The notes beneath the pieces were generated by a model, which had not been told where the DNA came from, made no database searches, and was given only the letters and a program-made list of their open reading frames with translations. DNA of 61,767 nt, counting the filler, from Chthonomonadaceae bacterium (GTDB lineage Bacteria > Armatimonadota > Chthonomonadetes > Chthonomonadales > Chthonomonadaceae), in NCBI GenBank assembly GCA_035650735.1. It is 5 parts of 5 records of this genome, joined end to end, with 100 filler letters (N's around TTAATTAATTAA, not from the genome) between each part and the next. Parts side by side here need not be neighbours in the genome. Positions count along the whole stretch, not along the records: positions 42,163 to 54,199 come from DASRGZ010000089.1; 4 more parts are not named here. The stretch is one strand, 5' to 3'. A program made the translations under genes and the position numbers. Positions 30,917 through 56,582 of the stretch are shown here, piece by piece. Position 1 is the stretch's first letter, and every line of letters starts with the position of its first letter.

Positions 30917-31376
30917 TCACCAAACAGTCGGTACAAGGCCACTGTTGACGATGGAGGAGTCACGAGTAATACAGGGACAGCTATGTTCTAAAGCTACTGA
31001 GTTACATGCGCAGTATGCCCAGATGGTTCAACAAAATACAGGGACAGCTATGTTCTAAAGCTACACCAGCAATGATCCGGTCATGGATTTCAGGAATAGC
31101 GCTTAACGCATCAAAGCGCAGTACATCCTCAGCACGGAAATCCACGAAGACGAATTGAGCACTGGACTTTAATCGGGCAAACTCCGTCGCAAAATCGAGT
31201 GGCTGTCCTAACTTTACATTAACGTAATAGAGTTCCGCAAGCACGATACTGGGCAAGTAGATACGCGCTTGCCCTTGTTCGCCAGCACGAAAAGCAGCCA
31301 GGGCATTTGCGCCCAATTGTGGCATCCCGGTCAGGTACCAAAAGAGAGCGTGTGTATCCGCGACGTATTCAATCAA
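30917..31376 (-). pseudogene. vapC: VapC/PIN toxin disrupted by a 67-bp insertion
   Basis: YVADTHALFWY, IVLAE, HDRII; removing 67 bp restores ..CPCITRDSSIVNSGLVPTVW-stop at 30917. Confidence 0.8.
30968..31064. repeat. Exact 30-bp direct repeat flanking a 37-bp unique insert
   Basis: AATACAGGGACAGCTATGTTCTAAAGCTAC at 30968-30997 and 31035-31064. Confidence 0.95.
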
Positions 31377-40522: not shown

Positions 40523-40715
40523 TATTTAGTCATTCTCTTCCTCAGCACCATACCACGCATAGGCGTCGAGAAGGCTCTCCCGGCCAAGGGAGGAAAATGA
40601 AAAGGCCATCCATCGTATGGCATATCCTACCAATGACCACATTATGGCGAACGAGGAGGAAGTTGTCAACAGATCATTTTTTGGATGACCAGCGCTATCA
40701 GCCGGAACAGCCTAG

Positions 40716-42062
40716 TTCTACAGTAGTATTTAAGTGACGGTCGTCAGTCTTCGTTTGTAGTGGTAGTATCTGGCGACCTCCTGATGCGTTCGCCTCCACT
40801 GGGACCAGAGAAGCCAGTGACGAAAGGAGACAAACGGCTGCCAGATCAATCGGCAGAGCAGACGACGCACTTCCGGCACACTCAAGGGCACACCACTCCC
40901 CGCTGGCTTTTGAAGTGCCTGAGCGAATTGCCGGGTTGGGAGCGCCCCCCTTTGAGCGGGCTGTCTTCTCCCTGCATCCGGGTGACGGCCAGATAGGCAT
41001 GGGCCAGCCTCGCCAACGTGATGTGCCGATACCAACCGTGCCAGGAACGCACTTCATACTCTCCAAGCCCACTTCGCCCTTGGCTTCTTGTAGACAGCAT
41101 TCGATGCTCCAGCGGGTTCGGGCCACCCGAACCAGGGTGGAGAGCGGCGTCTCAGACGGGGCATAGGTGATATAAGCGGTCTTCTCCCCAGGATCGGCGA
41201 GGCTGCGACGAACCAGCATACCGCGCTCCCATCCTTCGGGGGAGAGGCTGTTGACCCGCACATACGCCCAGTCGTACAGACGCGGCCCTTTGGCTCCCTC
41301 GCCCGCCGAGAGCCGATGCCAGGCCTGCTCGGGCACTTGGGAAAGGAGCGTCTTGACCCGGTATTGTTGAAACCCGATCCAGACACTCTCCTGCCCGCAG
41401 ACAGCCATGACATAGGATTTGCCTTGCTCTTCCAACCAGGAGCGCAGGGAGCGATCATTGCCGTAGACGGCATCGCCGGTGACCCAACCGCAGGGCACGT
41501 TGGCCCCCAGAGCGCGCGCCAGCATGGCTCTGGCGATCTTGGGCTTGGTGGCAAAAGGCAGGTCCTCGGGCACTTCAGCGGCCCGACACCGGTCCGGAGC
41601 GTTGGTCCAGTCTTGGGGCAGGTAGAGATGCCGATCCAGGAAGGCATGTCCCTTCGGGGCCGCATAACCCGGAAAGACGCCGATCTGGCAATTCTCAATG
41701 CGTCCGGCGGTGCCGCTATCCTGGCGGGCCACGCCGCAGGATTTGACGCCTTTCTTGAGAAAACCGGTCTCATCCACGACCAGCACCGCATCGGGATCGC
41801 CCAGATGCTCCAGAACATAAGAACGCAGGTCATCGCGCACCAGGTCCGCGTTCCAGACGGCCCGATCCAGGCAGTGCTGCAAGCCGTAAGGCGTGGCATA
41901 GCCTGCCTGTTCGGCTAGTTGCCAGCCGTTCTTACGCTCGACCGGGCTGAGCAGACCACGCAGATAGGCGGCTAGGCGTTGGCGGGCTTCCAAGCGAGCA
42001 AAGCGCGGAGCCAGACGATGAATTAAGCTGTTAAGTTGATCGGCCCAACGCTGCACGGTAGT
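40716..42062 (-). mobile_element. IS701-family element with frameshifted transposase, cut by contig end
   Basis: VERKNGWQLAE, VVDETGFLKKG, GRIENCQIGV, RWSIE; frame change at EVGL/EYEVRSW; end CTAG|TTCTACAGTAG. Confidence 0.9.
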
Positions 42063-47374: not shown

Positions 47375-48967
47375 TCAGAGTATGTCGGCCTGCCTATCGG
47401 GAACGCCATCACGCCACGCTTCCCAATCGCTATAGTTGCCGGGATAGTCCTGGATGCGGCCTCTGTCTACCACCAGCAGCCGCTCGGCAAGACGGTCGAG
47501 CAGGTAGCGGTCGTGCGAGATCACCAGGAGGGTGCCGGAATAGGCGGCGATGGCATCCTCCAGGCGCTCCCGCGTGTCAATGTCGAGATGGTTGGTCGGC
47601 TCATCCAGCACGAGCAGGTTTGCACCGGAGACGACCGCGCCGGCGACCGCCAGCCGCACCCGCTCCCCGGCGGAAAGGTCGCGCACGCGCTTGTACACCT
47701 CCGATTCCCGAAACAGGAAGCAGGCCAGGAGCGTGCGCGCCTCCGTATGGGTGAAGTTGCCCCCTGCCTCCAGGATCTCCAGGGCGGTCTTGTCCGGATC
47801 GAGATGCTCCTGCTCCTGCGTGAGAAATAACGGCTGCACGCCCGCTCCCGTGCGGACTTCCCCCGCGCTGGGCGGCTCCAGGCCCAGCAGCACACGCGCC
47901 AGCGTCGTCTTGCCCGCACCGTTGGGGCCGACGATGCCGATCCGCTCGCCGTAGGTGACGTAGGTATCCAGCCCCGCAAACAGCGTGCGCTCCCCGAAGG
48001 ACTTGGCGACATCCCGCGCCTCAAAAACGATCTGGCCGCTGCGGCGCTCCACCAGGAACTTAGCCGAGAGATGGGCCATGTCGCGCAGTTTCTCTACCTC
48101 GCCCCGGCGTCCCGGCTTCTCCTCCATGCCGGGCGGGTTGACGATCTGCTCGATCTTGCGCTCGGCGGCGCGCGCCCGCTTGGCCATCTTCTCGGAGATG
48201 CGCCCCCGGAAGTCGCGTCCCCGCTTCGGGCCGCTCTGCGTGGCGGCAGCCCAGTTCAATTGCCGGTTGACAAACTCCCGCAGGGCGCGTATCTGCCGCT
48301 GCTGAAGAATGTAATCCTCCTGCTGCTGCTCCAACGCGCGCCGCTTGGCCTCCGCATAGGCGGTATAGTTGCCCGTGTACTCGATCAAGCGGCCCTCGTC
48401 GAGTTCGAGGATGCGCGTTACCGTCCGATCCAGGAACCGCCGGTCGTGCGAGACGACCAGGAACGCGCCCCGATAGGCGCGCAGATAGGTCTCCAGCCAA
48501 TCCAGCATGGAAATATCCAGGTGATTCGTCGGCTCATCCAGCAGCAACAGATCATGCTCACCGACCAGCAACCGCGCCAGCATCAGGCGCGTCTTCTCGC
48601 CGCCGGAAAGCGTCCCGGCCCGCTGCGGCATCTGATTCTCGCGAAAGCCCAGCCCGAAGAGCGCCTTGCGCACCTGCCAGGCCGCCACGCCCGGAGGCAA
48701 GCCCTCCATTGCCGCCTCCATCACGGTCAAATCCGGCGCGAAGTCCGACAATTGCGGCAGGTAGCCGACCGACAGCCCGCGCCGCAGCCCGCCGACGCCG
48801 CCCCGATCCGCCGCCTCGGCCCCGGCCAGGATGCGCAGCAGCGTGCTTTTGCCGCAGCCGTTGCGCCCGGCCAGGCCCACACGCTCTCCGGTTCCAATCG
48901 AAAGCGAAACGCCGTCGAGCAGCGCCCGCGCCCCATAATATTTGCTGATATTGTGTGCATTAAACAT
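47375..48967 (-). CDS. ABC-F ATPase (ribosome-associated, possibly antibiotic-protection type)
   Basis: Two NBDs (GRNGCGKST, GPNGAGKTT), two LDEPTNHLD, long inter-domain linker, no TM. Confidence 0.92.
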   Translation of the reverse strand: MFNAHNISKYYGARALLDGVSLSIGTGERVGLAGRNGCGKSTLLRILAGAEAADRGGVGGLRRGLSVGYLPQLSDFAPDLTVMEAAMEGLPPGVAAWQVRKALFGLGFRENQMPQRAGTLSGGEKTRLMLARLLVGEHDLLLLDEPTNHLDISMLDWLETYLRAYRGAFLVVSHDRRFLDRTVTRILELDEGRLIEYTGNYTAYAEAKRRALEQQQEDYILQQRQIRALREFVNRQLNWAAATQSGPKRGRDFRGRISEKMAKRARAAERKIEQIVNPPGMEEKPGRRGEVEKLRDMAHLSAKFLVERRSGQIVFEARDVAKSFGERTLFAGLDTYVTYGERIGIVGPNGAGKTTLARVLLGLEPPSAGEVRTGAGVQPLFLTQEQEHLDPDKTALEILEAGGNFTHTEARTLLACFLFRESEVYKRVRDLSAGERVRLAVAGAVVSGANLLVLDEPTNHLDIDTRERLEDAIAAYSGTLLVISHDRYLLDRLAERLLVVDRGRIQDYPGNYSDWEAWRDGVPDRQADIL

Positions 48968-48996: not shown

Positions 48997-49767
48997 TTAA
49001 GTCTTCACTTTGCGGGCGCGTAAGCCCAGAAAGAGCGGTATCTCCCGGTTGTCCAGGTTCTCGGCGCGCGCTTTGTCAGCCGGGATTTCGCGCAGGCGCT
49101 CCACCAGCAGGCCGCACTCCGCCAGGCTGTTGATGTAGGCTTGCAGCGGGCGGTGAAAGCTGCGCGTGGCCCCGTTTCCGCCCGGATAGGGCTGCATCGG
49201 CACGGAAAACGGGGTCAGATAGCTCTCGATGCGCCGGAACGCCCGCTTGCGCCGCTCGTCCCAGCCCCAACCGCTCTGCCAGGGCACGCGGAAACAGGGA
49301 TGGGTCATCAGCAGGATCAGACGACCGCCGTGTCGGAGCGTCCAGGCGGCGGAAGTCAGCGCCGAAGCCAGCGGGTCCATGTCCTGCAAGCTCAGCAGAA
49401 AGACGGCGGCATCAAAGCGCTGATGTAACTCCGGCAGCTCTGCCAGCCGGTGCGCGTCGGCCAGAAGGAAGCGGCCCTGCTCGCCATGATGTTTGCGGGC
49501 GAACTCCAGCAATCGGCTGCTGGCGTCCAGGCCCGTATAGCGCGCCCGCGCCCGGACAATAAAGGGCGCCAGAACGCCCTGCCCCGCGCCGATGTCGAGA
49601 ATATGCTCGCCGGGGCGCGGCTCCAGCAACTCCAGCACCGCCGGAATCGCCAGCCGGCGATGGTGGTCGCTGCCGCGTTTGCCCACCCAGCCGTTATACC
49701 AGTCTGCCACCGGGTCCCAACTGGTGCGCACTCTTAACGTTCCTGATAGCCTTTTCTGTGGGGTCAT
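48997..49767 (-). CDS. Class I SAM-dependent methyltransferase
   Basis: TSWDPVADWY, ILDIGAGQG, THPCFR, FHRPLQAY. Confidence 0.88.
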   Translation of the reverse strand: MTPQKRLSGTLRVRTSWDPVADWYNGWVGKRGSDHHRRLAIPAVLELLEPRPGEHILDIGAGQGVLAPFIVRARARYTGLDASSRLLEFARKHHGEQGRFLLADAHRLAELPELHQRFDAAVFLLSLQDMDPLASALTSAAWTLRHGGRLILLMTHPCFRVPWQSGWGWDERRKRAFRRIESYLTPFSVPMQPYPGGNGATRSFHRPLQAYINSLAECGLLVERLREIPADKARAENLDNREIPLFLGLRARKVKT

Positions 49768-49849: not shown

Positions 49850-49892
49850 AAAAACAAAACCGCCCTATGCGCCGGAAAAGCGCATAGGGCGG
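49850..49892 (-). terminator. Leader terminator of the methyltransferase-ABC-F operon
   Basis: 13-bp stem CCGCCCTATGCGC/GCGCATAGGGCGG followed by TTTTGTTTTT. Confidence 0.85.
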
Positions 49893-49922
49893 CAGAAAAA
49901 GCGGTGCGAAATCGTAGGCGGG

Positions 49923-49959
49923 GTTTCAATCCTCGCCCGGCCCGAAGACCGAGCGCTAC
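49923..49959 (-). CRISPR. Solitary 37-nt CRISPR-type repeat (no array)
   Basis: GTAGCGCTCGGTCTTCGGGCCGGGCGAGGATTGAAAC: GT start, internal hairpin, ATTGAAAC handle. Confidence 0.6.
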
Positions 49960-50024
49960 ATCCTGCGTCACAGAGGACGGCCCGACAACGAGACGCGAAC
50001 GCAAGCCCCAATCCGAACTCCCGT

Positions 50025-50053
50025 GTTTCAATTCCACGCTGGTTCGATAAAAG
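50025..50053 (-). CRISPR. Solitary 29-30-nt CRISPR-type repeat of a different family (no array)
   Basis: CTTTTATCGAACCAGCGTGGAATTGAAAC, resembling type I-B/III-style repeats. Confidence 0.6.
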
Positions 50054-50089
50054 GGCGGATGGGCGACCCCAGGCGTTCCGGCATCTACG

Positions 50090-50116
50090 TTAGCGAACGA
50101 TCCTCATGCGCATCAC
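50090..50116 (-). CDS. Putative leader peptide (M)MRMRIVR
   Basis: AAAGGGAG SD then GTG ATG CGC ATG AGG ATC GTT CGC TAA. Confidence 0.55.
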   Translation of the reverse strand: MMRMRIVR

Positions 50117-50160: not shown

Positions 50161-50189
50161 ATTATACCGTAGCGGGCGGCGCGTGTCAA
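50161..50189 (-). promoter_or_regulatory. Consensus sigma70 promoter
   Basis: TTGACA-17 bp-TATAAT. Confidence 0.85.
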
Positions 50190-56421: not shown

Positions 56422-56582
56422 AGGGGATAGCACTTCGTAAGCGCCCGCTCTTAGAGCAGGTGACGATTGAAACGCTGCAACTACTCCTCCGGCTTTGCAC
56501 GGCAATGCGGCCTGCTCATCCGTTTTGGGCGCCCCTATTGCCGACCACGCCGACAAAATCTCCGACGGATCGAGGGAACAGG

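What the first reader, a model, noticed from the sequence alone, without database searches (positions are those of the whole stretch)
49850..50053. Two different solitary CRISPR-type repeats inside a terminated leader RNA
Seen (minus strand, one predicted ~300-nt transcript): promoter, uORF, repeat A CTTTTATCGAACCAGCGTGGAATTGAAAC, 65 nt, repeat B GTAGCGCTCGGTCTTCGGGCCGGGCGAGGATTGAAAC, 30 nt, strong terminator. Both are co-oriented and end in the ATTGAAAC crRNA handle; no cas genes or array are nearby. Known: solitary repeats act as RNA anti-CRISPRs (Racr) or regulatory guides (CreA/CreR), and Cas6/Cas5d cut 8 nt from the repeat end. Inference: processing by two different Cas endoribonucleases could release crRNA-like RNAs, or cut the leader and link CRISPR status to ABC-F operon expression. 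This is the best candidate for an undescribed system here.
Basis: partly seen in the sequence, partly recalled or inferred. Interest (0 to 1): 0.85.

Follow-up and report, generated by a model that had tools for sequence, protein, structure and literature searches.

The report
CRISPR repeats inserted into gene leaders
Two real CRISPR repeats sit inside an antibiotic-sensing gene leader; they belong to dozens of single repeats that this bacterium and its relatives carry in front of ordinary genes, nearly always facing the direction of transcription, which suggests CRISPR RNA-cutting signals reused in normal messenger RNAs.

Summary
Observation confirmed. Repeat A is one base from the repeat of this genome's 80-unit type I-B/III-A array, whose Cas6 is intact. 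Repeat B is a type I-C repeat; no Cas5c is in this assembly. The leader is older than the repeats: a ribosome-stalling attenuator (RxR peptide, long stem, terminator) ahead of a methyltransferase and an ABC-F gene. Four orthologous leaders lack A; one has a decayed B look-alike. No guide target was found, so a dedicated two-nuclease sensor is unlikely.

The pair belongs to a wider class: 24 solitary A/B repeats here and 55 B copies examined in 14 relatives. They lie in leaders or just behind genes (tuf, infC, groES, ribosomal proteins, glnA); between co-directional genes 32 are sense and 1 antisense. They lack target duplications, keep the hairpin by compensatory changes, and often carry AAAC tails.

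Best reading: Cas6/Cas5c processing or binding sites domesticated in mRNAs (0.45). Main rival: unselected debris of a transcription-linked insertion route (0.28). No RNA data exist. The genome also has about 130 off-target spacer scars, which this scan found before in other genomes; the leader class was not found in my look-ups.

The parts
50161..50189 (-). sigma70-type promoter, TTGACA-17-TATAAT, 12 of 12 consensus
   Evidence: a similar promoter precedes the orthologous leaders of G040, G333 and G020
50090..50116 (-). leader peptide (M)MRMRIVR with an R-x-R (+X+) stall motif; ends Arg-stop like the orthologous LIGAR, MIVTR and MILAR peptides
   Evidence: R[LIM]R uORFs in 25 of 63 leaders of methyltransferase orthologues vs 68 of 1435 control leaders
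50062..50098 (-). 5' arm of the conserved long stem (overlaps the end of the uORF)
   Evidence: consensus pairs in 5 leaders; 9 of 30 predicted pairs have a two-sided change
50025..50053 (-). repeat A: solitary type I-B/III-A repeat, 1 nt from the genome's own array repeat; clean insert in the apical loop of the stem
   Evidence: 32-nt gap in G040, no duplication
49980..50010 (-). 3' arm of the conserved long stem (native leader; makes up most of the '65-nt spacer')
   Evidence: 13 of 13 nt identical in G040 and G020
49923..49959 (-). repeat B: solitary type I-C repeat (Rfam CRISPR-DR9), 9-bp hairpin plus 11-nt tail; cognate Cas5c not in the assembly
49850..49893 (-). intrinsic terminator, 15 pairs plus U-rich tail; homologous terminator in G040
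48997..49767 (-). class I SAM-dependent methyltransferase, first gene behind the attenuator; closest relatives mostly in Chloroflexota (up to 66%)
47375..48967 (-). ribosomal-protection-like ABC-F protein (NF000355, 457 bits vs cut-off 380); orthologues of 60-80% identity in 6 relatives

Best explanation
Two layers. (1) Native layer, well supported: a ribosome-stalling transcription attenuator that switches on the methyltransferase and ABC-F genes when an antibiotic stalls ribosomes on the RxR peptide. Architecture and conservation are shown; switching is inferred. (2) Added layer: A and B are two members of a class of full-length solitary CRISPR repeats that this lineage has repeatedly put into leaders and intergenic spacers, in sense orientation, copied from its own arrays (shown). 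The most likely role is as cis-acting RNA sites that Cas6 (A) or Cas5c (B) bind and cut, so that the downstream message starts with a protein-bound CRISPR handle, often followed by an unstructured AAAC run and the ribosome-binding site (inferred). Here both landed in tolerant positions, the stem's loop and the linker before the terminator. A should be a live Cas6 site; B is probably an orphan since loss of type I-C, unless that locus is missing from the bin. A cut at A would separate the uORF from the terminator; its effect on attenuation is unknown.
For: Orientation: 16 sense, 0 antisense in co-directional gaps of G000 (24 of 24 copies intergenic); 16:1 among 55 copies in 14 relatives; together p about 4e-9, kin not independent. 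Orientation does not follow the inferred replication strand (7 vs 11; genes split 1553:1527) or AAAC strand bias (2676:2510). Hairpin kept: 16 two-sided Watson-Crick changes vs 3.0 in shuffles and 11 mismatches vs 30 (61 copies, 5 pairs, 0 of 5000 shuffles). Tail conservation is uneven (G26 changed in 0 of 61, G33 in 1, T32 in 18). AAAC lies within 8 nt behind 18 of 56 copies vs 2 of 109 array spacers; all 5 long AAAC runs of G000 follow a B copy; the same repeat-AAAC-RBS layout occurs in another family. G037 has an intact I-C locus plus 7 solitary copies that resemble its array repeat. One gene carries a B copy in both G000 and G001 (about 60% protein identity). The window's B is nearly intact, while the aligned G040 sequence is a decayed look-alike (p about 8e-4) in a leader 61% identical.
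Against: No RNA evidence of cleavage. No Cas5c in G000, G001, G010, G014, G016, G035 or G040, the genomes with most B copies; G016 is a 3-contig, 97% genome. Five Cas5c-positive genomes (G034, G049, G053, G003, G045) gave no solitary copy. Most copies are not shared at orthologous leaders, so they turn over. The covariance model favours paired copies; some two-sided changes could come from unseen array variants (3 of the 5 T-A pairs at 9-22 are in G037) or from palindrome-correcting mutation. The C>T bias that keeps G.U pairs (25 vs 6) also appears in the unpaired tail. One antisense B in G001, a partial antisense match and two antisense mini-arrays of other types in G000 exist. In the window the B hairpin has only 0.44 pairing probability in the free transcript. 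The G040 look-alike is not significant by covariance model (7.3 bits, E 3.5).
Confidence: 0.45

Rival explanations
1. Unselected debris of an insertion route tied to transcription. Repeats are copied into highly transcribed DNA, for example by an RNA-templated step or by repair of breaks on the array, which fixes the sense orientation and leaves AAAC slippage tails; they then decay. Two in one leader reflect a strong promoter and tolerant loops.
For: Lineage-specific sites that turn over; persistence without Cas5c; decayed 4-periodic tails; at least three further repeat types show the same placement in G000; very active, promiscuous CRISPR integrases in this genome.
Against: Compensatory stem changes and uneven tail conservation. 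No reverse transcriptase found in G000. No target duplications around 63 copies, so ordinary off-target Cas1-Cas2 insertion of array fragments does not explain them. Copies are full length at both ends, and few partial copies were found.
Confidence: 0.28
2. Host-encoded decoys. Repeats in the most abundant transcripts soak up Cas5/Cas6/Cas7, like phage Racrs, and damp autoimmunity in a lineage that takes up many self-derived spacers. The short terminated leader RNA of this window would be an abundant double decoy.
For: Sense orientation, strong promoters and unstructured tails; self-derived inserts at off-target sites (9 of 169 have an exact single-copy source); Racr action is dose-dependent (PMC10651486, passages); most B-rich genomes lack I-C.
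Against: G000 keeps an intact I-B/III-A locus with 79 spacers despite 7 A copies; G037 keeps I-C despite 7 B copies; no mobile-element or acr context was seen.
Confidence: 0.12
3. Seeds or relics of small arrays. A repeat behind a host promoter is a ready target for Cas1-Cas2, gains a spacer, gives transient immunity and collapses back to one repeat.
For: Two- and three-repeat mini-arrays in leaders, mostly sense; one I-E-like mini-array holds a spacer with an exact genomic source.
Against: It does not explain how the first repeat arrives. A's flanks are native attenuator sequence, with no array leader or spacer. It does not explain the AAAC tails.
Confidence: 0.09
4. One reading: a dedicated cassette in which two nucleases release crRNA-like guides or report CRISPR status to the ABC-F operon.
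For: Both repeats are real and co-oriented in one terminated transcript; Cas6 for A is present; two types in one leader is uncommon (1 of 23 sites in G000).
Against: No target: 11-nt seeds hit 1 (A) and 2 (B) other sites, best 14 of 36 and 19 of 30 identity, none near cas promoters. The 'spacer' is the conserved stem arm. A is absent from 4 of 4 orthologues. No Cas5c.
Confidence: 0.06

Closest known systems
RNA anti-CRISPRs (Racr), viral solitary repeat units (PMC10651486; abstract and passages seen)
   Same: Single full-length repeat, often just behind a promoter, away from cas genes; expected to be processed by Cas6 or Cas5c; RacrIC1 lies in a bicistronic mRNA.
   Different: Racrs lie on phages and plasmids, often near acr genes. 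These copies lie in chromosomal housekeeping leaders, many per genome, with AAAC tails and an RBS behind them. Inhibition was not tested.
crRNA-like regulators and standalone repeats of cas loci: CreA/CreR, mini-arrays (bioRxiv 10.1101/2023.03.03.530964, passages and section 20 seen; CreTA papers seen as listings only)
   Same: Ectopic, partly degenerate repeats derived from the genome's own arrays; dynamic gain and loss.
   Different: That survey finds such repeats enriched inside cas loci and depleted in the rest of the genome, with spacers that match cas promoters. Here they are spread outside cas loci and the window's segments have no target.
Ribosome-dependent attenuators of antibiotic-resistance genes, e.g. 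rli80-hflXr with an RLR peptide (PMC6310831, passages; +X+ motif, PMC12583479, listing)
   Same: Promoter, short R-x-R uORF, alternative stems and terminator ahead of ribosome-protection genes.
   Different: It carries two CRISPR repeat inserts; the antiterminator pairing was not resolved by folding; it controls a methyltransferase plus an ABC-F.
Off-target ('neo-CRISPR') spacer integration (Nivala et al. 2018; not read, seen only as cited in bioRxiv 10.1101/148544)
   Same: The same genome carries about 130 duplication-insert-duplication scars at three array periods.
   Different: Those scars duplicate host DNA. The solitary repeats are canonical repeats without duplication, so they arise another way.
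Engineered Csy4/Cas6 sites in 5' UTRs used to insulate or control mRNAs (recalled; a Cas6f translation-repression paper, PMC13478208, seen as listing only)
   Same: A repeat placed in sense orientation shortly before the ribosome-binding site.
   Different: Synthetic. A natural genome-wide counterpart was not found in my searches.

Membership tests
CRISPR repeat, type I-B (A) | matches the repeat of an array linked to I-B cas genes and cas6 | tested here: met
   1 mismatch to the 80-repeat array beside Cas6 (TIGR01877), Cas7b, Cas1b and Csm genes
CRISPR repeat, type I-C (B) | same repeat family as arrays beside cas5c/cas8c/cas7c/cas1c | tested here: met
   B-type array in G037 flanks Cas5c, Cas8c, Cas7c and Cas1c, all over cut-off; B is 4 nt from array repeats of G040, G047 and G049
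Racr (RNA anti-CRISPR) | solitary repeat behind a promoter, not linked to cas genes | tested here: met
Racr (RNA anti-CRISPR) | encoded by a phage, prophage or plasmid, often near acr genes | tested here: not met
   neighbours are typA/bipA, an ABC-F and a methyltransferase; the leader is shared with relatives; no acr search was run
Racr (RNA anti-CRISPR) | binds Cas proteins and inhibits interference | not testable with these tools
   needs bench work
CreA/CreR crRNA-like regulators | lies in or beside a cas locus | tested here: not met
   the cas locus is on another contig; no cas gene was recognised around the site
CreA/CreR crRNA-like regulators | spacer-like part matches a PAM-flanked promoter (cas or toxin) | tested here: not met
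   longest seed match at the cas promoters 4-6 nt; no convincing genomic target
Ribosome-stalling attenuator of resistance genes | short uORF with an R/K-x-R/K motif ahead of a terminator | tested here: met
Ribosome-stalling attenuator of resistance genes | controls a ribosome-protection or modification gene; architecture conserved | tested here: met
   ABC-F over the NF000355 cut-off; leader conserved in 4 relatives, though their peptides end in a single Arg
Ribosome-stalling attenuator of resistance genes | alternative antiterminator fold on stalling | tested here: inconclusive
   the terminator stays at 0.98-1.0 in full-length folds; truncated folds rearrange, but no clear antiterminator appears
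Off-target Cas1-Cas2 insertion (neo-CRISPR scar) | repeat-length target duplication around a spacer-length insert | tested here: not met
   flank matches around 63 solitary copies equal the null; A is a clean insert
Cas6/Cas5c processing site in mRNA | cognate nuclease in the genome | tested here: inconclusive
   met for A; not found for B, but arrays of G001 and G040 also lack their cas genes in the bins
Cas6/Cas5c processing site in mRNA | RNA ends at the predicted cut | not testable with these tools
   no RNA holder listed

The most novel reading that the evidence does not exclude
This lineage has domesticated CRISPR repeats of several types as a general mRNA-maturation signal. A route that inserts precise, full-length repeats, often with a reiterated AAAC tail, into transcribed leaders makes Cas6/Cas5c cut and cap housekeeping messages such as tuf, infC, groES, ribosomal-protein operons and glnA. 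The same sites serve as birthplaces of new arrays under host promoters. The window's attenuator has collected two such sites and so puts an antibiotic-sensing switch within reach of Cas6.
Probability: 0.3. Interest if true: 0.9.

Novelty: new variant of a known kind. Interest (0 to 1): 0.74.

Why it matters
Solitary repeats are described on phages and plasmids (Racr) and inside cas loci (CreA/CreR); a broad survey reports them depleted elsewhere in genomes. Here a bacterial family carries them in leaders of core genes, strand-specifically and with structural conservation. If Cas6/Cas5c act on them, CRISPR nucleases have a housekeeping role in mRNA processing, a natural form of the engineered Csy4 insulator. 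If they do not, a strand-specific, duplication-free route for moving CRISPR repeats exists that is not explained by known Cas1-Cas2 chemistry. Either way, the sites make the origin of orphan arrays and their promoters directly testable.

Tried and rejected
Guide or target search for the segments behind A and B: nothing convincing. Cas5c in G000: none by TIGR01876 or by tblastn with G037's Cas5c/7c/8c; PF09704 found only the I-B Cas5. Pfam Cas6 searches missed even the known Cas6, so they show nothing. Reverse transcriptase PF00078: none in G000. Target duplications or spacer-repeat-spacer flanks around solitary copies: same as null. Replication-strand bias: rejected (strand inferred from third-position skew on short contigs, a rough proxy). 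Strict exclusion between Cas5c and solitary B: rejected by G037. Known RNA family for the whole leader: no Rfam match beyond the repeats. Nucleotide alignment with methyltransferase-orthologue leaders: too diverged; none of 63 had the exact 8-nt handle, and the 8 one-mismatch octamers were not inspected. A first uORF test requiring SD plus terminator was weak (6 of 63 vs 2); the looser R[LIM]R pattern was chosen after seeing those peptides. Antiterminator by folding: unresolved. Expression: no RNA holder listed. PAMs at the 9 sourced off-target inserts were not consistent enough to call. Unweighted handle-plus-stem scan: at 3 mismatches 2 of 4 intergenic hits were antisense, at the level of shuffled-handle controls (0-7 hits), so they were treated as noise. 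Literature searches without a description of the leader class.

Full report
Observation. B passes the Rfam gathering score for CRISPR-DR9. A is 1 nt from the repeat of an 80-unit array on contig C93. A contig from a run of another study covers both repeats without a difference.

CRISPR context. C93 carries cas6, cas8, cas7b, cas5, cas3, cas4, cas10, csm2-4, a CARF-like gene, cas1b and cas2 beside the array: type I-B plus III-A. It is the only cas1 found. B-type arrays in relatives flank type I-C genes (G037: Cas5c, Cas8c, Cas7c, Cas1c over cut-off). No Cas5c, Cas7c or Cas8c is in G000; Cas5c was found in 10 of 42 family genomes. G001 and G040 hold B arrays at contig ends without the genes, so bins do lose these loci.

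The leader is a native attenuator. The downstream genes are a SAM methyltransferase and a ribosomal-protection-like ABC-F. An R[LIM]R uORF precedes 25 of 63 methyltransferase orthologues (63 of 80 loci had usable upstream DNA) against 68 of 1435 control genes and 3 of 63 reverse complements (the pattern was chosen after inspection). Of 6 ABC-F orthologues in 68 genomes, 4 have the leader on their contig. All 4 share an Arg-stop uORF and the long stem, 3 share the promoter, and G040 also shares the terminator. This is the layout described for rli80-hflXr (PMC6310831, passages). Against G040, repeat A is a clean 32-nt gap in the stem's loop, and most of the '65-nt spacer' is the conserved 3' arm. 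At B's position G040 has a decayed look-alike: profile p about 8e-4 given the position, but not significant by covariance model. Folding did not resolve an antiterminator.

No guide. The 11-nt seeds behind A and B hit 1 and 2 other places, with poor extension and no match at the cas promoters.

The class. G000 holds 17 B-type copies (one weak, E 0.04) and 7 A-type solitary copies. With my own gene model, 24 of 24 are intergenic; 16 lie between co-directional genes and all 16 are sense. In 14 relatives I examined 55 B copies: 16 sense and 1 antisense between co-directional genes, 24 same and 3 opposite with one flank known, 9 in divergent gaps, 2 unassigned. Left out of that count were one copy inside G037's I-C locus, one at a contig end, two G013 mini-array copies, four loci of unknown strand or partial match, and weaker hits not fetched. 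Of 42 downstream ORFs, 7 are S21, S4, S13, S14, EF-Tu, IF3 and GroES; in G000 one copy precedes glnA. One G001 copy lies before a 16S rRNA start, recognised from memory. No formal enrichment test was made. Most sites are not shared between genomes; one gene has a copy in both G000 and G001. Orientation does not follow the replication proxy or AAAC strand bias. At least three further repeat types occur singly or as mini-arrays in G000, mostly sense, with two antisense mini-arrays. A-type copies were also seen in G010 and G040, and B with AAAC and an RBS in another family (that exact pattern hit 3 of 301 phylum genomes, one being G000).

Signs of selection, and their limits. In 61 full-length copies, five stem pairs show 16 two-sided Watson-Crick changes (3.0 in shuffles) and 11 mismatches (30 in shuffles); three of these pairs never vary in 14 array repeats. 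Tail positions differ sharply in conservation. Model-based discovery, unseen array variants and strand-biased mutation could each contribute. AAAC follows directly in 13 of 56 copies and within 8 nt in 18, against 2 of 109 spacers; all 5 long AAAC runs of G000 follow a B copy. No duplications flank 63 copies and no reverse transcriptase was found, so the insertion route is open. One speculation: Cas1-Cas2 joins the two ends of a chromosome break to a repeat, and recombination between the resulting two repeat copies restores the array and leaves one precise repeat behind.

Off-target scars. Two-copy direct repeats peak at periods 61, 66-68 and 73. There are 169 sites, 132 after removing multi-copy families; 152 of 169 are intergenic; 9 of 169 inserts have an exact, spacer-length, single-copy source elsewhere in the genome, one of them in a canonical mini-array. 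This is the neo-CRISPR signature (Nivala 2018, seen only as cited in 10.1101/148544). Earlier notes of this scan report it in other genomes. It shows that three integrase types have worked here, including one with B's period.

Comparison and novelty. The class looks like Racr SRUs (PMC10651486) but fails the mobile-element criterion. It looks like CreA/CreR-type repeats but fails the locus and target criteria; the survey in 10.1101/2023.03.03.530964 reports depletion outside cas loci (its supplementary tables could not be seen and might list such copies). Searches and look-ups found no description of sense-oriented repeats in housekeeping leaders; most subscription journals are not covered. 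The organism's taxon was not given by any search; the Armatimonadota search term was my guess from gene content.

Verdict. The wider class is a new variant of solitary repeats with an unexplained, strand-specific origin. Domesticated processing sites 0.45, transcription-linked debris 0.28, host decoys 0.12, array seeds 0.09, dedicated guide or sensor 0.06.

Noticed in passing
window 30968-31064 (G000:C88:10652): 30-bp exact duplication around a 37-bp insert, one of about 130-170 off-target spacer-integration scars in the genome at periods 61, 66-68 and 73; some have three copies (e.g. C224:43544-43709).
   Followed up: partly
window 56438-56473 (+): A third, degenerate B-type repeat (E 0.04) just behind a TATAAT box and ahead of a sigma-factor-like ORF (name from sequence resemblance, not tested).
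   Followed up: partly
G000:C93:2502-22479: Hybrid type I-B plus III-A locus with an upstream WYL-type gene, an 80-repeat array, and a Cas1 with a long low-complexity insertion.
   Followed up: partly
G000:C109:6231-6382, C42:25176, C105, C126, C127, C219, C19:53152: Type I-E-like single repeats and 2-3-repeat mini-arrays in intergenic regions, although no I-E cas1 is in the assembly; one spacer has an exact genomic source.
   Followed up: partly
G000:C58:29729, C78:1187, C179:42140: Three solitary copies of a further ATTGAAAC-ending repeat family, one ahead of an ORF resembling ribosomal protein S16 (name recalled).
   Followed up: no
G000:C80:20559-20726 and C119:60732-60843: Two mini-arrays of other repeat types that lie antisense to the flanking genes, exceptions to the orientation rule.
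   Followed up: no
L280 (G040) and L281 (G333): The same attenuator precedes a different methyltransferase-like gene (SpoU/TrmH-like by appearance, not tested) plus the ABC-F; in G020 and G327 it directly precedes the ABC-F. The first gene of the operon has been swapped.
   Followed up: partly
L268 (G037:C4:90972-91008): A solitary B repeat between cas3 and cas5c of an intact I-C locus, a candidate CreR-like regulator.
   Followed up: no
L164 (G044:C60) and L165 (G034:C64): B-type arrays beside Cmr-like (type III-B) modules, alone or inside a I-C locus; no cas6 was seen in the stretches fetched.
   Followed up: no
window 40698-42056 (-): IS701-like transposase reading frame (resemblance by eye, not tested).
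   Followed up: no
G000 (C33, C76, C13, C173, C79): Five B copies lie ahead of prepilin-type N-terminal methylation (DUF1559-like) genes; the family is large here, so enrichment is untested.
   Followed up: no
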